Shown here: piece after piece, positions 4,376-19,804 of the stretch
How the letters are laid out: each line of letters begins with the position of its first letter
Position numbering within the stretch: position 1 is the stretch's first letter
DNA from: Alphaproteobacteria bacterium
Lineage (GTDB): Bacteria; Pseudomonadota; Alphaproteobacteria; MPNO01; UBA830
Assembly: GCA_964291215.2 (NCBI GenBank)
Contig: OZ219790.1
Span: forward strand, 1,024,001 to 1,088,000
Reading direction: 5' to 3'
Length of the DNA: 64,000 bases
Position numbers and translations under genes: made by a program
Notes under the pieces: generated by a model
Database searches by the model: none
What the model was told of the DNA's origin: nothing
Seen by the model: the letters and a program-made list of their open reading frames with translations, nothing else

Positions 4376-5239
4376 CTAGGGTTTCATGAAGGCAGACATA
4401 TCTCGGGTCGTGATCACAGAATCGACATAGCTGAAGGTGCCGTCCTGCAACACTTCCGACGCAGCCGCAATCATGCCGTCCATCGCAGCCCGGTAGAGCG
4501 ATCCGGCCAGACTGACGCGGCGCACCCCCGCAGCCGCCAGGTCTGCCAACAGAAAGGACCTCCCCGGAATGCCGGCCATGAAATTCACGGGTTTCGACAC
4601 TGCCGCACAGACGGCGCTGACAGCGCCCAGGTCCGGCAACCCGGGTGCCATCAATACATCGGCTCCGGCTTCCTCATAAGCCTTCAGGCGCGCAATCACG
4701 CTATCCAGATCCGGGTGGCCATGAAGAAAAAGCTCGCTCCTCGCCGTCAGGACAAAGTCGAAGCCAGTCGACCTCGCGGCAGCGACGGCCGCGCTGATCC
4801 TCGCCGCCGCACTGTCGAGGTCATATATCGGATCTCCAGATTCGCCAGTCGAATCCTCGATCGAACAGCCCACAAGCCCATGTTCGGCAGCAAGCCGCAC
4901 GGTTTCGGCAACCACCGAAGGCTTGTGCCCGAACCCGTTTTCAAGATCGCCGGAAACAGGAAGGTCAACTGCGTCAGCGACGGCTTGCGCATGTCGAAGC
5001 GCGTCATGCCTGGTCACGCTTCCGTCCCGGCGTCCCATCGTGCCCGCGAATCCGCTGCTTGAGGTCGCAAGGGCGGGACATCCGAGCCCGGCGAGGACGC
5101 ACGCCGAACCCGCGTCGAAGGGATTGGCCATAACGAATGGCCCAACGCCCTCATGCAGTGCACGAAATCGCTCGGCCTTGTCGGCTTGACTTGGGCGAGT
5201 ATCCACCTCCGGGGTTGCGCTTTCCGGTATCAAGGTCAT
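4376..5239 (-). CDS. isocitrate lyase/PEP mutase family protein
   Basis: KAERFRALH, NPFDAGSA, LATSSSG, PVSGDLENGFG, GCSIED, AYEEAGAD; start re-called at 5239 (GAGGA upstream). Confidence 0.88.
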   Translation of the reverse strand: MTLIPESATPEVDTRPSQADKAERFRALHEGVGPFVMANPFDAGSACVLAGLGCPALATSSSGFAGTMGRRDGSVTRHDALRHAQAVADAVDLPVSGDLENGFGHKPSVVAETVRLAAEHGLVGCSIEDSTGESGDPIYDLDSAAARISAAVAAARSTGFDFVLTARSELFLHGHPDLDSVIARLKAYEEAGADVLMAPGLPDLGAVSAVCAAVSKPVNFMAGIPGRSFLLADLAAAGVRRVSLAGSLYRAAMDGMIAAASEVLQDGTFSYVDSVITTRDMSAFMKP

Positions 5240-5483: not shown

Positions 5484-6233
5484 TCAGTTCACGTTGACGG
5501 CCTCACCGAGGACAGGTCCGATTTCGAGGTGGACGACAAGATCGGCGATGTCATCGAGTCCGGTCGGATCCCGGTTGATGATGACGAGTTTCGCGCCGCT
5601 CTTCTTTGCCATTGCCGGAAAACCGGCGGCAGGATAAACGACAAGCGACGAGCCGGCGACAATGAACAGATCGCAGGCGAGGGTTTCGACGCGCGCGCGC
5701 TCCATCTCGCGTTCGGGCATCATCTGACCGAACGAGATCGTCGCCGCCTTGACGAGACCGCCACAATCGACGCACTCGGGAGCGGCGCCGTCGGCCTGGA
5801 AGGCCGCCTTGATGGGTGCCAGCTCGTAGCGGGTGCCGCAGGTCAGGCAGGTAGCGTACGTGCCATTGCCGTGGAGCTCGATCATCCGCTCATCGGGCAC
5901 GCCGGAAGCCTGGTGAAGACCGTCGATGTTCTGCGTGATCACAGCTGTCACCTTGCCGGTGCGCACCAGTTTGGCCACTGCCCGGTGGCCCCGGTTCGGC
6001 TCGGCGCCGTCAATATCGCGATCGACATCGAACTTGCGCCGCCATGCCTCGCGGCGAGCATCTTCCGAATGGACGAACTCCTCGAAATAGATCGGGGCGG
6101 TCTTCGACCATATTCCGTTCGGACTGCGGAAATCCGGAATGCCGGACTCTGTCGATATACCGGCTCCGGTAAAGACCACGGCGCGTTCGGCGACCGCTAT
6201 CATCTCCCTCAGCGCAGGAATCTCATTGTTCAT
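5484..6233 (-). CDS. NAD-dependent protein deacylase, Sir2/sirtuin family
   Basis: FTGAGISTESGIPDFRS, TQNIDGLHQ, ELHG, Zn-binding CLTC...CVDC, GSSLVVYPAA; start re-called at 6233. Confidence 0.95.
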   Translation of the reverse strand: MNNEIPALREMIAVAERAVVFTGAGISTESGIPDFRSPNGIWSKTAPIYFEEFVHSEDARREAWRRKFDVDRDIDGAEPNRGHRAVAKLVRTGKVTAVITQNIDGLHQASGVPDERMIELHGNGTYATCLTCGTRYELAPIKAAFQADGAAPECVDCGGLVKAATISFGQMMPEREMERARVETLACDLFIVAGSSLVVYPAAGFPAMAKKSGAKLVIINRDPTGLDDIADLVVHLEIGPVLGEAVNVN

Positions 6234-6894
6234 ACTGGTGGGCCGCGACTGCGGAATGGCCGTGGTCCGCCCAGACCCCGACCACCTCGGCGCTGTCGGG
6301 AACATGGCCGAAGATCAGGTCAACGGACGTGATCGTAGCCTTATGCAGGGCCGCGTTGGCGCTTCCGACGCAGTCGGGCGGCATCACGATGTAATAGCCA
6401 TGGAAGAATCCTGCACGCAGCGTGGACTCGACACAGACATTGGTCGCAACCCCGGTCATTACCAGTGTGCGAATCCCGCGCGCCTGCAGGAGATCATGCA
6501 GCCCGGTTTCGTGAAAGGCCGAATAGCAGTGCTTCTCGATCACCGACTCATCGTCACGTGGCGCAACCCCGTAGAACTCGGCGCCCCAGGAACCCGATGC
6601 GCAGCAGACGGCACCCTTGCCCTTTTCCAGCATCTTCGAGAGCATCGGCACCGGCAGCTTGTCATGATCATAGATGGCCTTGATCCATACCACTGCAACG
6701 CCCGCGCGCCGCGCGTCACCGAGAAGTCCGTCAAGGCGCCGGGCGAGGTCACGATTGGGGCTCATGTCCGCATTCTGGGTGTTATCGATGTAGCCGCCTT
6801 CCGCGCAGAAATCGTTCTGCATGTCGACAACGATGACCGCCGTGTGCGCGGGATCGAGAATGTCCTTGATCCCGCTCAGAAGCCTGTCAACCAT
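6223..6894 (-). CDS. cysteine hydrolase / isochorismatase family amidohydrolase (RutB/NicF-like)
   Basis: Asp-Lys-Cys triad motifs VVDMQNDF, IEKHCYSAF, GVATNVCVEST. Confidence 0.9.
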   Translation of the reverse strand: MVDRLLSGIKDILDPAHTAVIVVDMQNDFCAEGGYIDNTQNADMSPNRDLARRLDGLLGDARRAGVAVVWIKAIYDHDKLPVPMLSKMLEKGKGAVCCASGSWGAEFYGVAPRDDESVIEKHCYSAFHETGLHDLLQARGIRTLVMTGVATNVCVESTLRAGFFHGYYIVMPPDCVGSANAALHKATITSVDLIFGHVPDSAEVVGVWADHGHSAVAAHQYEQ

Positions 6895-7747
6895 GACCGA
6901 CCTGCCTTTCCATGTCCCAGTAGACGCAGCCCATGCCGCAACGGAGTTCGACGGCAGGCTCGTAACACATCGTGCGGGCCGGCCGGCCTTCCGCAGCTCC
7001 CATGGCTCCGATCCATGCCAGCAGTTCGCTGGTTCCGCCGTCTCCGGCCGCCAGCATTTTATCCATCGTGCATTCGCGCAGGACCGTCTCCGGATCTCCC
7101 TGCTCCATCAGCGCCAGAAACCAGCGGTCGAAGTCTTCGTTGACGTCGAAATACTTGGGCCCGCCGGGATCATGCGAGAGCCCGCCGGTAGCCATGAAGG
7201 CAACCCTGAGCCCGGGCGGCAAGTCCGAACCAACGATCTCGCGCACGGCGCAGCCGACCTCGTAACTTGTGTGCGTAGACGGCACGGGCGGCACGACGCA
7301 GTTCATGTTGATCGGAACCAAGGGAATGTCGTGGTCCGGAGTAAGGTAAAAGAGCGGCACCGACCAGTTGTCGTCGAACAGCAACTGTGCCGCAGAGACG
7401 GTATCGAACCCACGTGTCGACAGCCCGTCGAAGATTGCTCCGGCAACGCCGCTGTCTCCCGCTACCACATAAGGCGGCACATTGACCCAGTCCTGAAACC
7501 ATTCCGCCGGACCGTTCCAGGACCCAGAGGTGCCGACGCAAAAATCATGGGTGTCATGCGGCGGCATGTTGAGAAGATGATCGTTGGCAAGGCCGACGAT
7601 CACGTCGGGCCGTGTCGCACGCAGGATATCGCCAAGCCGCGAGAAGCCGTCGGTGAGCCTTTTCTGCTGGTGTTCGGGTGCCTGATCCAGCCAGCCTGTC
7701 AGACCCGGCGCATGGCTCAAGGCGACCACGGAAACAAGTTCGGCCAT
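6887..7747 (-). CDS. extradiol ring-cleavage dioxygenase, LigB-type catalytic subunit
   Basis: N-terminal SHAP, RPDVIVGLANDH, ATGGLSH and SELLAW motifs. Confidence 0.88.
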   Translation of the reverse strand: MAELVSVVALSHAPGLTGWLDQAPEHQQKRLTDGFSRLGDILRATRPDVIVGLANDHLLNMPPHDTHDFCVGTSGSWNGPAEWFQDWVNVPPYVVAGDSGVAGAIFDGLSTRGFDTVSAAQLLFDDNWSVPLFYLTPDHDIPLVPINMNCVVPPVPSTHTSYEVGCAVREIVGSDLPPGLRVAFMATGGLSHDPGGPKYFDVNEDFDRWFLALMEQGDPETVLRECTMDKMLAAGDGGTSELLAWIGAMGAAEGRPARTMCYEPAVELRCGMGCVYWDMERQVGHG

Positions 7748-8058
7748 CAGCGCAACTTTCCCCGGCCTTCGACAACGCTTCGGCCATAAGCCTGTGCCGC
7801 TGTCGAACGGTTGTGATTGTATCCCGTACCATGAAACAATCTCGAAACCTGCGGCAAAAAGTAGGGATGGACTCCAAGCTCCGCAAGACTCTTGAGATCG
7901 ATGTGCCTGAACGCTTCGCGCTCCACCTCCGAGAGGCCGTATTGTTCCATAACCGCCTCCAGATCATCGGCAAAAGCGGCGAATTTTTTCTGATCTCGGC
8001 GTACCTCGAAGATCATCCGGTTTGCCGGCAGATCCCTTCTCGTATCCGCTATACCCAT
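7747..8058 (-). CDS. LigA-like small subunit of ring-cleavage dioxygenase
   Basis: FADDLEAVMEQYGLSEVEREAF...DLKSLAELGVHPYFL matches the LigA/CarBa pattern; strong RBS GAGGGAGGA; TGATG overlap with the LigB-type gene. Confidence 0.8.
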   Translation of the reverse strand: MGIADTRRDLPANRMIFEVRRDQKKFAAFADDLEAVMEQYGLSEVEREAFRHIDLKSLAELGVHPYFLPQVSRLFHGTGYNHNRSTAAQAYGRSVVEGRGKLR

Positions 8059-8430
8059 CAGCGATCCTCCCTCTGTGACAACAGGCGAATGATCCCGCAC
8101 CGGAAGAAACAGGTCAAGCGGCCACGTACTGCGCGGTTCCTGCTTCGGAGTCGCTAAAGCGCGGTCACGAATGTGCCGAGGGTTGCGGATCTCGGGCCGG
8201 CTGCCGGCGAAGAAAATTGTCGGGGCAGGCCATGGAATTTTCGATAGGACGGCTGGCCCCACGCAAGCTCTTTCCCGAATCTCCCAAATTGCATGGCTGC
8301 AGTCTCCTCAAGCCATGTGCTGCAAAACAACGTTGAAAGCAAGGAAAATATGACGGGTATCAGTAACTGCTCACGCCCCTGGTTCCAGCTTGATATCGGG
8401 GTAGAGCAACGAACGGGTTTTCGTGAAGAT

Positions 8431-8695: not shown

Positions 8696-8830
8696 ATGAA
8701 CACGCTCGCGATGCACTCTCCTGAAGCCGTCCAGATCGGAACCTCAAAGGGACCTGCAGACGGCGTGAGCCGCACGACCGTGCAGCGGGCGGTGAAGAAG
8801 CTCCGGAACCGGCCTCCGCATGATCTATGA
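8696..8830 (+). CDS. 44-aa ORF with HTH-like segment, possibly a transposase or regulator remnant
   Basis: Hand translation MNTLAMHSPEAVQIGTSKGPADGVSRTTVQRAVKKLRNRPPHDL; GVSRTTVQR resembles an HTH recognition helix. Confidence 0.35.
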   Translation: MNTLAMHSPEAVQIGTSKGPADGVSRTTVQRAVKKLRNRPPHDL

Positions 8831-8876
8831 ACTGCCAGACAACGCACGCAAACTCGGCCCAGAAGCATCACCCTGA

Positions 8877-9420
8877 TTGGAAGAAATCAAAGCCGAGGTC
8901 AGGACGTCTGAAATTTGTGGTGTTGCGTCCGGCTCCGGACGAACGTGCGCGGCGCCTGTGGGCGGCGACGGAGGCCCGTGCCATCGGGCGCCGAGGCATT
9001 GCGCGAGTGGTCGAGGCGACGGGGATGTCGCGCGGCACCGTTCGCGCCGGGCTGAAGGAGCTCGATTCAGACGCAGTCTCCGAGTCTTCGGGCGAGGTTC
9101 CTTCAGGACGTTTGCGTCGCCCCGGCGGCGGGCGGAAGCGGGTGACGGATCTGGATCCGGAGTTGGTGGCGGCGCTGGAGCGCGAGCTTGAACCGATAAC
9201 GCGCGGCAATCCGGAGAGTTCGCTGCGCTGGACGTATAACTGTGCCGCACGGCTGGCGGAGACCGTCTTGCGGTCGAGGGCCACCGCGTCAGCAAGCGCA
9301 CGGTGAACCGGCTGCTCCACGATCTGGGGTACAGCCTTCAAGCCAACCGCAAGACGCTGGAAGGCCGCCAGCATCTGGACCGGGATGCGCAGTTCCGACG
9401 CATCGACCGCGAAGTCTTCG
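8877..9420 (+). pseudogene. ISAzo13-family transposase, frameshifted and 3'-truncated
   Basis: DERARRLWAATEARAIGRRGI, RRPGGGRK, TRGNPESSLRWT, then in another frame RLLHDLGYSLQANRKTLEG..H.DRDAQF; no catalytic DDE region follows. Confidence 0.85.
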
Positions 9421-9439
9421 CGAAACTTGTCGATGCAGG

Positions 9440-10740
9440 TTGCGTAATCCTTGTGAGGCGGCTCCTCGTGCGGTGGGTTCGACACCAGCCGCCGAGGAGA
9501 TTTCGGCGACCCCGGCGGTGCGTGTCCTGTCGGTTGACGATCAATGCGCGCAGGCGCGTGGTGACCCTGGTTCCGCATGCTCTCGCGGATTGATGTCCGG
9601 CACTTGTCGATGCCCCGCGCGGGGATCAGATGCACCGCGGCGAGCACGGCGATCAACAGGTGGGCGGCGATGCGCTGGCCGGGCGCAATCCGGGCTCGGA
9701 TTTCAATGAACGGAAGGTGGCCTCGATATCCGTGTCCCGAGGATGGTCTCGATATCCTGGTCGCTGGTGCGCAGGCGCCCGCGTTGTCTTGTCGTCTGTG
9801 GCTGAAGCGCACGGCCGTTGCGTTGGCGCCGGCCTTCTCGACAGTGATCTCGTAGTGTCGGACGACGGTGGAGAAGCGCTGCTCGAGACCGCTCTCCAGC
9901 ACCTTGTCGTGGCGCCGGCCCTTGGCCGAGAGGTGGAGCTTTTTGCCGCCTCGAAGCCCTGCGGCCAAGAATGGCGTCCTCGGCCCTCTTCCTGCTCTCG
10001 CTGACCACGTAGAGCCGCGCTGGCAAGGCGCCTGCACCTCGTGGTCGGTGATCAGCCTCGGGCCCACCCTCGGGCGGCGCCGCCCGCGATCCAGCCGTGC
10101 CCGCCACGCGATGTTCGCCTCGGTGCCGGCGTCCATGACTACCGTCGGCTTCGCCGCCCGCCTCCAGCCTCAGCAGCGCATCCGTGCCCGGCCACGTTGC
10201 CCCGCAAGACCTCGCAACTGCGCCGAAAGCCCGCGCCGCGCAAGCGTGGAGCAATCATTGCGCTTCTGCTTTGAGCGCCCGAAGCGGGGGAGATTGCCGT
10301 CGACGCGGCCGTTAACATTGGCGAGATCGTAAAAGGCGATGGTGTCGGGGATGCAGCGCGCGCTCACGGTTGAACAGCTCCTGGCGGCCCGGTGACGCAG
10401 GTCGCCGATGCGGTACAGCGTCTTGCGCGCCTTGCGCTCCGGATCCGGAAGCTCCGCGGTCGCGCTGTCATCGCGCAGCCGGCGCTCGCTGGCGGATCAT
10501 CCTGGCGACGATCAGCGCACTCGCGGCCCGTGATGCCGAGATCGTGAAGCCGAGATCGCGCCTCGAGGCACAGGCAGCCGACCGGGCGCGGGTTCTCGTG
10601 CTTGAGGCTGTCGAGGTTGACGGTCGCAATTTGCGTGCGTCTTCCTCCAGAGCGCCGGCACGGAACCTCCGGGCCCCTGTTGACGATGTCCTCGGCTGCG
10701 GCCTGCACGCGGCTTCGAACAGCGGCGGGTGGCCGTGGTC
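9440..10740 (-). pseudogene. IS1634-like DDE transposase, heavily degenerate
   Basis: Collinear fragments spread over several frames: ATVNLDSLKHENPR, RKTLYRIGD, TIAFYDL, FGRSKQKRNDC, VMDAGTEANIAW, HYEITVEK, RIAAHLLIAVLA, IVNRQDT. Confidence 0.78.
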
Positions 10741-17233: not shown

Positions 17234-17839
17234 CTATCCGTCCGGTACCCGGAAGTCCTCGCTCAGCGCCCGCCGCACATGCTCAGGGACGACGGCCATG
17301 TGACCGTACTGCGGATGTCCGATGGCAACCACCGCCTCGGCGCTGCCGGATCGCATGGCGTCAACCGCCTCGTCGTCGAACGGGAAGTGCACGAAATGAA
17401 CCGAAGACGTCTTTCCGTCAGCGCGGGTGCGATCCATGTCAGCTTCCGCCACACCCCGGATCCTGCTATCGCCTACGGAAATGAACATTGCCTGCTCGAC
17501 GCTACCGAGTTCTCCGAGAATCCGTTTCCGCTGCGCCGGATCCCCGATCTCGAACATCACCGTGGCCACGAGTTCGCGGCCCTGGGGAATCAGCGGGTTA
17601 TAGGCCTCGAGCTCATCCTGGATCTGGGCCTCGCCACCACGCTCAATATAGAGCATCTCGTGGACCTGGTGCCACATGGTCTCATAGTTCTCGAAATGGA
17701 ACGTGGCGTGCGGCCCGACCGCCACCCGCCTGTTCTTTTTTAGCGCGATCAGAGCCTTCCTGCGCGCGCGGCGTTCGGAGGCATACCGTTCCATCGGAAG
17801 GATATCGGCGCGGGTAATCTGTGTCGGAGATGCGTTCAC
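17234..17839 (-). CDS. DUF3501 family protein
   Basis: RRVAVGP..TFHFEN, QVHEMLYIE, ELEAYNPLIP, KTSSVHF; GTG start overlaps the upstream stop (GTGA). Confidence 0.85.
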   Translation of the reverse strand: MNASPTQITRADILPMERYASERRARRKALIALKKNRRVAVGPHATFHFENYETMWHQVHEMLYIERGGEAQIQDELEAYNPLIPQGRELVATVMFEIGDPAQRKRILGELGSVEQAMFISVGDSRIRGVAEADMDRTRADGKTSSVHFVHFPFDDEAVDAMRSGSAEAVVAIGHPQYGHMAVVPEHVRRALSEDFRVPDG

Positions 17840-19182
17840 GTCTGCCTCCTGCAGGCCTGCGCGAGCAGCCGGATCGGATGCGGCACATGCTCCGGTACAT
17901 GTTCCCCGTCGCCTGCCAGACGCTCCATGCCCTGGCGGAGATGATCTCCTGCCAGCGGACATTCGGATACCACCCACCGTCGATCCGCCCGCAGCGCGCG
18001 CCGTGCGGCGGGCCGTCCGATCTTGAGCGCCGTATCGAAATTCTCCCTCATCATGCCCCAGGAGCCCCCATGCCCCGAGCAGCGCTCAACCACCTGCACG
18101 TCGGTGTCGGGAATCAGCCGCAACAGTTCCGCAGCTTTCTGCCCAACATTCTGTGCCCTTGCATGGCAGGCGAGGTGGACCGTCACGCCGCCGTCAAGGG
18201 GCTGCGGCTCGTCGGCCAGGCCTTCCTTGCGGGCAATGTCGACGATGTACTGGCTGATATCCCAGCTCGCTTCGGAGAGGCGCCGCAGGTCGTCATCCTC
18301 AGGGAGCAGGAGCGGCCACTCGAACTTGAGCATAAGCGTGCAGCTCGGAGTGAGTGCAACCACATCATATCCATTGTCTACCCACGGGATGAGGGCTGCC
18401 GCAACCCGCCGCGCGTTCTTTGTCACGGCCTCGATGTCGCCATGCTCGAATTTCGGCATGCCACAACAGGTCGGGTAGACGACTTCGGCCTCGACGCCGT
18501 TGCGGGCCAGAATCTCAAGCGCATCCTCGCCCGTCTCGGGATCGTTGTAGTTGACGAAACAGGTGGCATAGACGACAGCCTTCCGCCCGAATGCCGGCGC
18601 ATCACGGTTGACCGGCACAGGCGCGGCGCGAGCGCGCATCGTCAGCGTCCTGCCGTGAAACTTCGGCACAGCAGCGCGCCGATCGATGCCGGTAGCGGCC
18701 TCGACCACCGGTCGCATCAGCTTGTTCCCGGTATCGGTGGCCCAGTTGGCAAGCGGCGCAACAGGCGCAGCGAGCCTGCCGTTGCGGTCGGTTTCGGCGA
18801 GTTGCTGCCTGACGAAACTGGTCCCACCCTTCTTGCGCTGCACAGCGCGATAACGAAGCATGAGGTGCGGCACATCGAGATTGAACTCGTGCGGCGGCAC
18901 ATAAGGACACTTGGTCATGAAACACATGTCGCACAGCGTGCATGCATCGACCACGCCGCGGAAGTCCTCGGAAGAGACCGTGTCGAGTTCCAGACTCTCC
19001 GATTCGTCGATCAGATCAAAAAGCCGGGGAAAGGAGTCGCAAAGATTGTGGCAGCGCCTGCAGCCGTGACACACATCAAATTGACGGCGCATCTCGGCGT
19101 CCAGCTTCTCCTCGTCGAGAAAATCGGGATCGCGCCACGGAACAGGATGACGCTCCGGCGCTTCAAGACTGCCTTCAGCCAC
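17836..19182 (-). CDS. rubrerythrin-associated Fe-S oxidoreductase (GlpC/heterodisulfide reductase-like)
   Basis: CHGCRRCHNLC and CTLCDMC...CP ferredoxin motifs; CCG domain (TCCGMP, ERCSGHGG). Confidence 0.9.
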   Translation of the reverse strand: MAEGSLEAPERHPVPWRDPDFLDEEKLDAEMRRQFDVCHGCRRCHNLCDSFPRLFDLIDESESLELDTVSSEDFRGVVDACTLCDMCFMTKCPYVPPHEFNLDVPHLMLRYRAVQRKKGGTSFVRQQLAETDRNGRLAAPVAPLANWATDTGNKLMRPVVEAATGIDRRAAVPKFHGRTLTMRARAAPVPVNRDAPAFGRKAVVYATCFVNYNDPETGEDALEILARNGVEAEVVYPTCCGMPKFEHGDIEAVTKNARRVAAALIPWVDNGYDVVALTPSCTLMLKFEWPLLLPEDDDLRRLSEASWDISQYIVDIARKEGLADEPQPLDGGVTVHLACHARAQNVGQKAAELLRLIPDTDVQVVERCSGHGGSWGMMRENFDTALKIGRPAARRALRADRRWVVSECPLAGDHLRQGMERLAGDGEHVPEHVPHPIRLLAQACRRQT

Positions 19183-19228
19183 TGAAATTCCTCGTGTTCC
19201 CGGATCCGGGCCCGGCCTCGCGGACGCC

Positions 19229-19262
19229 CGCCCGGGACGGCCTCACGCCGTCGTCCCGGGCG
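19229..19262. repeat. GC-rich stem-loop between rubrerythrin and the Fe-S oxidoreductase
   Basis: CGCCCGGGACGGC-CTCAC-GCCGTCGTCCCGGGCG, bulged hairpin without a U-tract. Confidence 0.6.
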
Positions 19263-19304
19263 AGTGTCGCACCGCAGATCTGCCCGGCGCGGTCCCGGAC
19301 GCGA

Positions 19305-19724
19305 TCAGTCAAGCTCATTCAGAGCCTTCTGGAAGCGGCCCGCATGCGACCGCTCGGCCTTTGCCAGTGTCTCGAACCAGTCGGCGATCTCGTCGAAATT
19401 CTCGTCACGGGCTTCCTTCGCCATGCTGGGGTACATGTCGGTGTATTCGTGCGTTTCCCCCGCTACCGCCGCCTTCAGATTGTCCGAGGTAGTCCCGATC
19501 GGCTCGCCCGTTGCCGGGTCGCCCACCTCCTCGAGATACTCGAGATGGCCGTGCGCATGCCCGGTCTCGCCTTCGGCGGTCGAGCGGAAGACGGCGGCAA
19601 CATCGTTGTAACCCTCGACATCCGCTTTCTGGGCAAAGTAGAGATAGCGGCGGTTTGCTTGGGATTCCCCAGCAAACGCATCCTTCAGGTTCTGTTCCGT
19701 CTTGGTTCCGGCGAGTGATGCCAT
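19305..19724 (-). CDS. rbr: rubrerythrin, short form without rubredoxin domain
   Basis: [43 protein letters not shown] diiron motifs; RBS AAGGAGG. Confidence 0.95.
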
Positions 19725-19804
19725 GTTGGCCTCCTTGTTGTTAGTGTGATGCGGAACCGCAGCCACAAGAGCGCTGTCAGCGATGGGAGCGGTCGGTAGC
19801 CCGC

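What the first reader, a model, noticed from the sequence alone, without database searches (positions are those of the whole stretch)
5484..8058. Overlapping-gene operon: LigA/LigB dioxygenase + cysteine amidohydrolase + sirtuin
Seen: four minus-strand genes overlap by 1, 8 and 11 nt, which indicates one translationally coupled unit. Known: LigAB-type enzymes open aromatic rings; RutB/NicF-type cysteine hydrolases remove amide or carbamoyl nitrogen after ring opening of pyrimidines and pyridines; sirtuins consume NAD+, release nicotinamide and reactivate acetylated acyl/aryl-CoA ligases. The hydrolase reads CCASGSWG where PncA nicotinamidases have HC..GT.G, so it is probably not a classical PncA. 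Inference: this is a catabolic module I do not recognise, for an N-heteroaromatic or amino-aromatic compound, with a sirtuin either as a built-in acylation control or acting on a small-molecule acyl intermediate.
Basis: partly seen in the sequence, partly recalled or inferred. Interest (0 to 1): 0.7.

Follow-up and report, generated by a model that had tools for sequence, protein, structure and literature searches.

The report
Aromatic-amine ring-cleavage module, passenger sirtuin
Three adjacent genes form a widespread, unstudied bacterial module that likely cuts open an amino-substituted aromatic ring and strips a nitrogen from it, while the fourth gene is the cell's only sirtuin, sits here only in this one genus, and is probably not part of the pathway.

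Summary
In detail: ligA (8058-7747), ligB (7747-6887), a cysteine hydrolase (6894-6223) and a sirtuin (6233-5484) overlap by 1, 8 and 11 nt. The first three genes are a conserved unit: of 80 genome loci with this LigB, 70 have ligA and 49 the hydrolase adjacent. The sirtuin is in 4 of 80, all this genus, and in 0 of 80 metagenome loci. It is the genome's only sirtuin, an ordinary single-copy CobB-type gene that lies elsewhere in 18 of 18 other family genomes. The LigB belongs to an uncharacterised clade that keeps the iron ligands and catalytic base but has Asp at the substrate-binding His127 position (120 of 120 homologues). The hydrolase is RutB-like, not PncA. Fuller clusters add a RidA deaminase, a 3-hydroxyanthranilate-dioxygenase-like enzyme, decarboxylases, formamidases and the 2-hydroxymuconic semialdehyde pathway; one plasmid has an unrelated amidase in the hydrolase's place. 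Best reading (inferred): ring cleavage of an ortho-amino aromatic, then amide hydrolysis. The substrate is not identified. New variant of a known kind.

The parts
8089..8117 (-). Candidate sigma-70 promoter of the operon (TTGACC, 17 nt, GATCAT)
   Evidence: Consensus scan (4 sites found in 5 kb against 1.6 +/- 1.4 by chance, so weak alone). Both hexamers and the 17-nt spacing are kept upstream of ligA in G001 and, with a diverged spacer, in G004; not seen in G002 or G003. Function inferred.
8066..8070 (-). Shine-Dalgarno GGAGG, 7 nt before the ligA ATG
   Evidence: Sequence; purine-rich sites at the same place in family relatives.
7747..8058 (-). LigA-type small (alpha) subunit, 103 aa, conserved G-x-HPYFLPQ-x-x-R motif
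   Evidence: Pfam LigA 37.1 bits, cut-off 25.3; adjacent to this ligB in 70 of 80 genome loci; conserved columns in 70 sequences.
6887..7747 (-). LigB-type catalytic (beta) subunit, 286 aa; iron ligands H12, H57, E241, base H192; D126 in place of LigB His127/DesB His124; invariant R269
   Evidence: Pfam LigB 99.7 bits; alignments to 1B4U, 3WKU and the H124F mutant 3WRB; model pLDDT 90.8, best fold matches DesB and LigAB, TM 0.81-0.84; residue counts in 120 homologues.
6223..6894 (-). Isochorismatase-fold cysteine hydrolase, 223 aa; triad D24-K121-C154; subfamily marks C30, Y75, C97-C98, H184; closest to RutB
   Evidence: Pfam 146.5 bits; RutB is the top NCBIfam and PDB match but far below cut-off, 131 against 378 bits; column counts in 57 relatives; directly behind ligB in 49 of 80 genome loci.
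5484..6233 (-). Sirtuin (CobB-type NAD-dependent deacylase), 249 aa; the genome's only one; passenger of the operon in this genus
   Evidence: Pfam SIR2 143.8 bits; single SIR2 match in the genome; distribution and position in relatives.

Best explanation
ligA, ligB and the hydrolase gene form a conserved unit that likely encodes an Fe(II) extradiol-type dioxygenase for an ortho-amino-substituted aromatic ring plus an amidase that would remove the nitrogen left as an amide, and the sirtuin behind them is the genome's only sirtuin and probably a passenger. Shown: gene order, conservation, retained iron ligands (H12, H57, E241) and base (H192), the His-to-Asp change at position 126, an intact D-K-C triad, and the genus-only position of the sirtuin. 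Inferred: the substrate binds iron through an ortho pair (NH2/OH or NH2/NH2), Asp126 accepts a hydrogen bond from an amino group where LigB His127 holds a hydroxyl, O2 insertion beside the nitrogen-bearing carbon yields a muconic semialdehyde mono-amide, and Cys154 hydrolyses it through a thioester to release ammonia. Any second nitrogen would be removed by a RidA deaminase, a carboxylate by a decarboxylase, and the C6 chain would enter the 2-hydroxymuconic semialdehyde (meta) pathway, encoded beside the module in Burkholderiales and elsewhere in this genome. An aminohydroxybenzoate or diaminobenzoate is the most likely substrate class. My odds by step: sirtuin not a pathway enzyme 0.9; three genes act in one nitrogen-aromatic catabolic pathway 0.85; benzene-type ortho-amino substrate 0.6; hydrolase acting after rather than before cleavage 0.55.
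For: Co-occurrence: ligA adjacent in 70 and hydrolase adjacent in 49 of 80 genome loci from alpha-, beta- and gammaproteobacteria, Tectomicrobia and Eremiobacterota; 64 of 67 and 51 of 66 assessable metagenome loci. Where ligB stands alone, ligA and a high-scoring hydrolase are kept elsewhere in 4 of 4 family-f2 genomes tested. Active site: D126 in 120 of 120 homologues found by protein search, with H12, H192, E241 and R269 also 120 of 120 and H57 119 of 120; the column is DesB His124, fixed by the H124F structure, and that residue hydrogen-bonds the equatorial OH and is essential (PMC3962378, passages). Neighbours in the 80 loci: RidA 18, 3-HAO-like 9, 2-hydroxymuconic semialdehyde dehydrogenase 7 (880 bits, cut-off 693), CMD-like 11, creatininase-family 10, amidohydrolase-3 11, arylformamidase-like 8; L094, L095, L099, L102 and L106 run ligA-ligB-hydrolase into the dehydrogenase and hydratase/decarboxylase genes, the first four on to acetaldehyde dehydrogenase and aldolase. 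This set mirrors the 4-amino-3-hydroxybenzoate pathway of Bordetella 10d: dioxygenase, YjgF/RidA deaminase, decarboxylation, dehydrogenase (PMC4539516 and PMC6449761, passages). A Corynebacterium plasmid has hydantoinase A/B, ligB (42%, keeps D126 and R269), ligA, then an acetamidase/formamidase of a different fold where the cysteine hydrolase usually sits, with dmpG/dmpF-type genes nearby. G000 holds the dehydrogenase and lower pathway at C2:310441-315539 and the HAO-like gene at C1:1630935-1631444; the family has ligB in 23, the dehydrogenase in 20 and the HAO-like gene (57% or more) in 21 of 26 genomes. Sirtuin.
Against: No substrate was tested and no characterised enzyme falls in this clade among what I could search. 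28 of 80 loci have no cysteine hydrolase within the fetched flanks, so the pairing is not obligatory at locus level. The dehydrogenase was not found in any of 4 genus-g6 genomes, 3 of which have ligB (completeness 86-100% for those three), and G000 has no close match to the cluster-type RidA (best 40%), creatininase or CMD-like protein. The rich clusters come from related Burkholderiales, so their counts are not independent. One cluster (L102) pairs a second hydrolase of the same subfamily (50% identical to the window's) with the HAO-like dioxygenase, which fits a step before cleavage as well as after. In L068 the module lies beside genes that look like the protocatechuate 4,5-cleavage route instead (labels partly recalled). 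The role given to Asp126 is a chemical inference; no docking or ligand model was made. The sirtuin does stay behind the hydrolase in all 5 genomes of the genus, at 68-96% identity.
Confidence: 0.55

Rival explanations
1. Same genes, other order: the hydrolase acts before ring cleavage, removing an N-carbamoyl, N-formyl or N-acyl group or a ring carboxamide to give a free aminophenol or aminohydroxybenzoate, which LigAB then cleaves in the ordinary way.
For: The closest solved relatives act on ureido or carbamoyl compounds: RutB, biuret hydrolase. The same hydrolase subfamily also sits beside the HAO-like dioxygenase in L102. Many other C-N hydrolases surround the module.
Against: Other upstream ring-opening or deacylating hydrolases are already present in the fuller clusters (creatininase-family, amidohydrolase-3, arylformamidase-like, hydantoinase A/B), yet the amidase slot directly behind the dioxygenase genes is still filled, in Corynebacterium by an unrelated acetamidase/formamidase.
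Confidence: 0.22
2. The substrate is a hydroxylated N-heterocycle (pyridinediol or similar); cleavage leaves an N-acyl or amide chain that the hydrolase splits, as NicX/NicF do for 2,5-dihydroxypyridine.
For: A LigB-family enzyme, PydA, has been annotated as a 3,4-dihydroxypyridine dioxygenase (PMC7356986, passage). In the marine family the flanks often hold Rieske oxygenases, a maleate-isomerase-like gene and an amidohydrolase-2 decarboxylase-like gene; two loci have genes that look like molybdenum hydroxylase subunits (L061, L066; label recalled). An NMT1/THI5-like binding protein occurs in three Burkholderiales clusters.
Against: The co-directional downstream genes in the fullest clusters are the C6 2-hydroxymuconic semialdehyde pathway, which needs a six-carbon ring product. 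The marine flanking genes are mostly divergent or convergent and lie far from the module in G000.
Confidence: 0.13
3. One reading: the sirtuin is a dedicated fourth member that controls the pathway by deacylation or acts on an acylated small-molecule intermediate.
For: Adjacent in 5 of 5 genomes of the genus, overlapping or within 9 nt in 4. A TA-nnn-T hexamer 6-7 nt before the sirtuin start, present in 15 of 19 other family loci, is missing in 5 of 5 genus loci, so there the sirtuin probably depends on the module's transcript. N-acetylated aminobenzoates exist as regulators in Rhodopseudomonas (PMC6191541, abstract).
Against: Only sirtuin in the genome; 0 of 76 genome loci outside the genus and 0 of 80 metagenome loci; in other genera it follows an AcrB-type efflux gene or an AMP-binding ligase region; no residue is specific to the adjacent copies and the tree mostly follows genera; no close match to this sirtuin (E <= 1e-10) in 2 of 5 distant genomes that carry the module.
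Confidence: 0.06
4. The Asp126 clade is no longer a ring-cleaving dioxygenase but an iron-dependent enzyme with another reaction.
For: His124 is indispensable in DesB (PMC3962378) and the equivalent His119 in a plant DOPA dioxygenase (PMC11926856, passage); it is replaced here in every homologue.
Against: All three iron ligands and the catalytic base are kept; the LigA partner is kept; meta-pathway genes follow. Aminophenol dioxygenase also lacks this His (Tyr129; recalled, not checked here).
Confidence: 0.04

Closest known systems
Protocatechuate 4,5-dioxygenase LigAB and gallate dioxygenase DesB (type II / class III extradiol dioxygenases)
   Same: Small alpha plus large beta subunit, same fold (TM 0.81-0.84), 2-His-1-Glu iron site and catalytic His.
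   Different: Only 23-25% identical; His127/His124 is Asp; invariant R269-C-G motif; scores 79 bits against a cut-off of 317 for the class III beta model and 27 against 161 for the alpha model; followed by an amidase.
CarBa/CarBb of the carbazole plasmid pCAR1
   Same: Two-subunit LigAB-type meta-cleavage enzyme followed by a hydrolase; acts on an amino-substituted aromatic diol (gene names and substrate recalled; the plasmid record shows 'subunit of meta-cleavage enzyme' and an alpha/beta hydrolase).
   Different: 27% identical to the Corynebacterium member of this clade; its partner is an alpha/beta C-C hydrolase, not a cysteine amidase.
2-aminophenol 1,6-dioxygenase (AmnBA/CnbC) pathway and the 4-amino-3-hydroxybenzoate pathway of Bordetella sp. 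10d
   Same: Direct ring cleavage of an ortho-aminophenol, RidA-family deamination, then the 2-hydroxymuconic semialdehyde route (PMC4539516, PMC6449761 passages); the same kinds of genes flank this module.
   Different: Aminophenol dioxygenase is 18-19% identical and has no LigA-type subunit (subunit make-up recalled); the 10d dioxygenase is a 3-HAO-type cupin (recalled); neither pathway as described includes an amidase.
RutB (ureidoacrylate amidohydrolase), BiuH (biuret hydrolase), NicF (maleamate amidohydrolase)
   Same: Isochorismatase fold, D-K-C triad, ATNVC motif shared with RutB; no PncA metal site.
   Different: Below every curated cut-off (RutB 131/378, BiuH 94/370); has its own conserved C30, C97-C98 and H184; no rutA or nicX context seen.
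CobB / Sir2-type NAD-dependent protein deacylases
   Same: All motifs present (GAGIS, FR, QNIDGLH, ELHG, two CxxC, GSSL, NRD); best PDB matches are prokaryotic Sir2 proteins, E 3e-52.
   Different: Just under the NCBIfam cut-offs (233/243, 242/320); position behind a catabolic module in one genus.

Membership tests
Type II (LigB-family) extradiol dioxygenase | LigB fold and Pfam PF02900 | tested here: met
   99.7 bits, cut-off 26.3; Foldseek top hits DesB and LigAB.
Type II (LigB-family) extradiol dioxygenase | His-His-Glu iron ligands and catalytic base His | tested here: met
   H12, H57, E241, H192 aligned to LigB/DesB; 119-120 of 120 homologues.
Type II (LigB-family) extradiol dioxygenase | O2-dependent ring cleavage activity | not testable with these tools
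   Needs an enzyme assay.
Protocatechuate 4,5-dioxygenase / gallate dioxygenase | His127/His124 that binds the equatorial hydroxyl | tested here: not met
   Asp126 in the window and in 120 of 120 homologues; other LigB proteins of G000 mostly keep His there.
Protocatechuate 4,5-dioxygenase / gallate dioxygenase | Score above the curated family cut-offs | tested here: not met
   Best beta-subunit scores 118/462, 113/290, 79/317; alpha 27/161.
LigAB two-subunit enzymes | Alpha and beta subunits form a complex | not tested
Isochorismatase-family cysteine hydrolase | Asp-Lys-Cys triad | tested here: met
   D24 55/57, K121 56/57, C154 55/57; aligned with RutB and its D24N and C166S mutants.
PncA nicotinamidase | Asp/His/His metal site and family score | tested here: not met
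   35 bits against 174; A73, Y75 and C97 occupy the region where the metal ligands lie (PncA motif positions recalled).
RutB ureidoacrylate amidohydrolase | Equivalog score and rut operon context | tested here: not met
   131 bits against 378; no rutA-type gene among the recurring neighbours.
Sirtuin (Sir2/CobB) | SIR2 domain with NAD-binding, catalytic His and zinc motifs | tested here: met
   143.8 bits, cut-off 24; motifs in sequence; alignment to 1MA3 and 1YC5.
Pathway-dedicated sirtuin | Second copy beside a housekeeping one, co-distributed with the pathway genes | tested here: not met
   Only copy; adjacent in 4 of 80 genome loci and 0 of 80 metagenome loci.
4-amino-3-hydroxybenzoate pathway (AhdA/AhdB) | The neighbouring HAO-like and RidA proteins are AhdA and AhdB orthologues | tested here: inconclusive
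   The HAO-like protein is below the 3-HAO cut-offs (133/220, 124/146) and reads SPRF where solved 3-HAO reads SPQR, but no source names it AhdA; the likeness to AhdA is recalled.

The most novel reading that the evidence does not exclude
This Asp126 clade is an extradiol dioxygenase that cleaves an ortho-diaminobenzene ring directly (for example 3,4-diaminobenzoate or o-phenylenediamine released from benzimidazole-, benzimidazolone- or quinoxalinedione-type compounds), producing a muconic amide that its partner amidase hydrolyses: a ring-cleavage chemistry with no catechol or aminophenol step, carried as a near-core trait by a family of uncultured marine Alphaproteobacteria.
Probability: 0.2. 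Interest if true: 0.75.

Novelty: new variant of a known kind. Interest (0 to 1): 0.45.

Why it matters
It defines an uncharacterised, well-marked clade of LigAB dioxygenases with a changed catalytic residue and a recurring amidase partner. The clade is present in 23 of 26 genomes of this family but in only 2 of 400 genomes sampled across the class, so it points to a nitrogen-bearing aromatic that these bacteria routinely consume. Cultured carriers (Ramlibacter rhizophilus, Variovorax sp. VNK109, Pigmentiphaga kullae, Bosea sp. Tri-49) make it directly testable.

Tried and rejected
Sirtuin as pathway member: rejected on distribution. Hydrolase as PncA recycling the sirtuin's nicotinamide: rejected. 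Recent mobile insertion: unlikely; GC3 of ligB, hydrolase and sirtuin is 0.73-0.75, like the flanking core genes (ligA is lower, 0.59), and the block between coaBC and tldD is syntenic in G001 and G004, although an ISAzo13-type transposase remnant lies upstream. Match to the riboflavin/lumichrome pathway: no LigB or isochorismatase term in that paper's main text (PMC12746152, abstract and term search; supplement not read). Carbendazim review: o-phenylenediamine is said to go to catechol, with no direct cleavage described (PMC11349639, passages). Ten literature searches listed no paper that describes this module; I saw listings for most hits and passages or abstracts of 8 papers; subscription journals are largely outside the library, so this is not proof of absence. 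PDB sequence search of the amidohydrolase-3 neighbour gave only weak matches. No RNA holder listed; the DNA runs laid say nothing on expression. Complex prediction of LigA with LigB was not available. The profile search of protein representatives had not finished when I submitted. The Atlas gave only LigB clusters for the LigB and did not answer for the CMD-like neighbour. No earlier finding of this scan was returned. My first clustering merged arylformamidase-like proteins with the cysteine hydrolases and put antisense ORFs into the ThDP family; counts in this report come from the cleaned runs. The 20 regions fetched largely duplicated loci and were not analysed separately.
Full report
Observation. 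The four minus-strand ORFs are intact at 8058-7747, 7747-6887, 6894-6223 and 6233-5484, overlapping by 1, 8 and 11 nt. Pfam assigns LigA, LigB, Isochorismatase and SIR2 above cut-off; no NCBIfam model is reached by any of the four. A promoter-like site (TTGACC-17-GATCAT, 8117-8089) and a GGAGG ribosome site precede ligA; the scan found no minus-strand site inside the hydrolase gene. The two hexamers are kept in G001 and G004 but were not seen in G002 or G003. The window lies in a 6.15-Mb genome whose close relatives are titled Alphaproteobacteria or Rhodospirillaceae MAGs, many from marine metagenomes.

What travels together. With an alignment of 48 LigB homologues I fetched the best 80 of 158 genome loci and the best 80 of 245 metagenome loci. 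In the genome set ligA is adjacent in 70 of 80, the hydrolase directly downstream in 49 of 80 (52 within the flanks), and a sirtuin within the flanks in 4 of 80, all in the window's genus. In the metagenome set ligA is adjacent in 64 of 67 and the hydrolase in 51 of 66 loci with enough flank, and a sirtuin in 0 of 80, of which 54 had at least 1.2 kb downstream. Where ligB stands without ligA, ligA and a high-scoring hydrolase were found elsewhere in 4 of 4 family-f2 genomes tested; the fifth genome tested has ligA beside ligB and a weaker hydrolase match. The LigB is in 23 of 26 genomes of the family but in 2 of 400 sampled across the class.

The sirtuin. It is the only SIR2 gene in G000 and matches in 40 of 41 related genomes, nearly always once. 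It follows the hydrolase in 5 of 5 genomes of the genus, with junctions of -11, +9, -4, -4 and +412 nt; the window's 11-nt overlap corresponds to 8 bases, including the stop codon, that G001 has and the window lacks. In the 18 other family genomes that have both genes they are on different contigs. In 14 of 19 other family loci the sirtuin starts 9-78 nt behind an AcrB-type gene (Pfam checked for 2), and in family f2 it lies behind an AMP-binding ligase region. A TA-nnn-T hexamer stands 6-7 nt before the start in 15 of 19 other family loci, against a background of 0.7-6% of positions, and in 0 of 5 genus loci; it keeps its distance to the ATG when the upstream stop moves, which suggests a leaderless promoter (inferred; kin are not independent). 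No residue is specific to the adjacent copies, 98 of 249 columns are invariant across 30 orthologues, and the tree mostly follows genera; the five adjacent copies need two changes on the tree, with one origin not ruled out. I read this as one rearrangement in the genus that put a housekeeping gene under the module's transcript.

The dioxygenase. The predicted structure (pLDDT 90.8) matches DesB and LigAB best (TM 0.81-0.84, 23-25% identity), then MhpB and aminophenol dioxygenase. H12, H57, E241 and H192 align with the iron ligands and base. The column of DesB His124/LigB His127 is Asp126; the H124F mutant entry fixes the register. D126 is present in 120 of 120 homologues from the protein search, as is R269. 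The 79 of 79 count in fetched loci is partly circular because the scan pattern contained this motif, so I rely on the protein search and on two plasmid proteins found by tblastn. The D126 sequences form one branch (support 96) apart from six other LigB-like stretches of G000 and two neighbours, most of which keep His (FastTree, long branches outside the group). In DesB, His124 hydrogen-bonds the equatorial hydroxyl and the mutant is inactive (PMC3962378, passages); LigB His127 and the plant equivalent are described likewise (PMC11926856, passages). An acid at this position would suit an amino group as hydrogen-bond donor; this is my inference. R269 may bind a substrate carboxylate, but the alignments to LigB ended before it, so that is a guess.

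The hydrolase. D24, K121 and C154 are conserved in 55-56 of 57 relatives, with C30, Y75, C97-C98 and H184 as subfamily marks. RutB is the best match by sequence and by profile, then biuret hydrolase; nicotinamidases rank far lower.

Pathway context. In Burkholderiales loci L094, L095, L099, L102, L106 and L110 the module is preceded by a divergent GntR and followed by a CMD-like gene (not in L102), 2-hydroxymuconic semialdehyde dehydrogenase (880 bits, cut-off 693), a creatininase-family gene and, in most, hydratase/decarboxylase, acetaldehyde dehydrogenase and aldolase genes. Other loci place a 3-HAO-like dioxygenase and RidA directly before ligA, with a divergent amidohydrolase-2 gene, and four of these also have 4-hydroxybenzoate 3-monooxygenase nearby. 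Counts over 80 loci: RidA 18, HAO-like 9, dehydrogenase 7, CMD-like 11, creatininase 10, amidohydrolase-3 11, arylformamidase-like 8, GntR 15. These are the gene types of the 4-amino-3-hydroxybenzoate pathway as reviewed in PMC4539516 and PMC6449761 (passages). The HAO-like protein is below the 3-HAO cut-offs and differs at the SPQR motif; that it is AhdA is recalled and not confirmed. A Bosea plasmid has creatininase, ABC transporter, GntR, ligA, ligB, hydrolase, amidohydrolase. A Corynebacterium glutamicum plasmid has hydantoinase A/B, ligB, ligA, an acetamidase/formamidase and dmpG/dmpF-type genes: an unrelated amidase in the same slot, which is the best single sign that amide hydrolysis accompanies this ring cleavage. 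Neither plasmid region shows a sirtuin. G000 carries the HAO-like gene, the dehydrogenase with its lower pathway, and amidohydrolase-3 and arylformamidase-like matches at 44-50% identity at separate places.

Against this reading: 28 of 80 loci lack the hydrolase nearby; the dehydrogenase was not found in 3 ligB-bearing genomes of genus g6; G000 lacks close matches to the cluster RidA, creatininase and CMD-like proteins; the rich clusters are from related organisms; and one cluster pairs the same hydrolase subfamily with the HAO-like enzyme. Marine-family flanks hold Rieske, maleate-isomerase-like and decarboxylase-like genes that would suit pyridine catabolism, and a LigB-family pyridinediol dioxygenase has been annotated (PMC7356986, passage).

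Verdict. A real, conserved three-gene module of known enzyme families in an undescribed combination, with a distinctive active-site change; the sirtuin is a genus-level passenger. It works like LigAB followed by a NicF/RutB-type amidase, but fails membership tests for protocatechuate 4,5-dioxygenase, RutB and PncA. Ten searches of the open library listed no description of it. The substrate remains the open question; an ortho-amino benzene, probably carboxylated, is my best estimate, and direct cleavage of an ortho-diamine is the boldest reading not excluded.

Noticed in passing
L003-L024 (sirtuin loci of other genera in the family), 16 nt before the start codon: A TA-nnn-T hexamer 6-7 nt before the sirtuin ATG in 15 of 19 loci and no Shine-Dalgarno match: possibly a conserved leaderless promoter, missing in the window's genus.
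   Followed up: partly
window 8827-9593: Broken ISAzo13-type transposase (Pfam DDE_Tnp_ISAZ013, 38 bits) in the 3-kb gene-poor stretch between coaBC and ligA.
   Followed up: partly
window 4376-5236 (-): Isocitrate lyase/PEP mutase family gene behind the sirtuin, present at this place only in G000 and G001 among the loci examined.
   Followed up: partly
L049, L050, L054, L059, L060, L062-L064, L067: Defluviicoccus-titled and related genomes have this ligB without adjacent ligA; in most it sits beside the same SH3/dehydrogenase/moeB/dut/coaBC block that lies upstream of ligA in the window, with a TRAP transporter and cupin genes on the other side.
   Followed up: partly
L263:10063-20713 (Corynebacterium glutamicum plasmid p48A): IclR, hydantoinase A/B, ligB, ligA, acetamidase/formamidase, dmpG/dmpF-type genes between recombinases: a compact mobile version of the pathway in a cultured Gram-positive host.
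   Followed up: partly
G000 C1:1630935-1633192; L219-L239: A 3-HAO-like dioxygenase (SPRF type) in 21 of 26 family genomes, often beside a GMC oxidoreductase; uncharacterised here.
   Followed up: partly
L084:11538-11912, L057, L089 and several metagenome loci: A small cupin gene directly behind the hydrolase or behind ligB in a subset of loci; role unknown.
   Followed up: no
L094:15470-16534, L095, L051: A 270-370 aa protein with no Pfam or NCBIfam match inside the meta-pathway part of three clusters.
   Followed up: no
L073, L077: A second ligA-like stretch (57-59%) directly behind the hydrolase in two genomes of one genus.
   Followed up: no
window 17234-19766 (-): Rubrerythrin-like, Fe-S oxidoreductase-like and small conserved genes in a row behind a Fur-family gene (labels from recall of motifs).
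   Followed up: no
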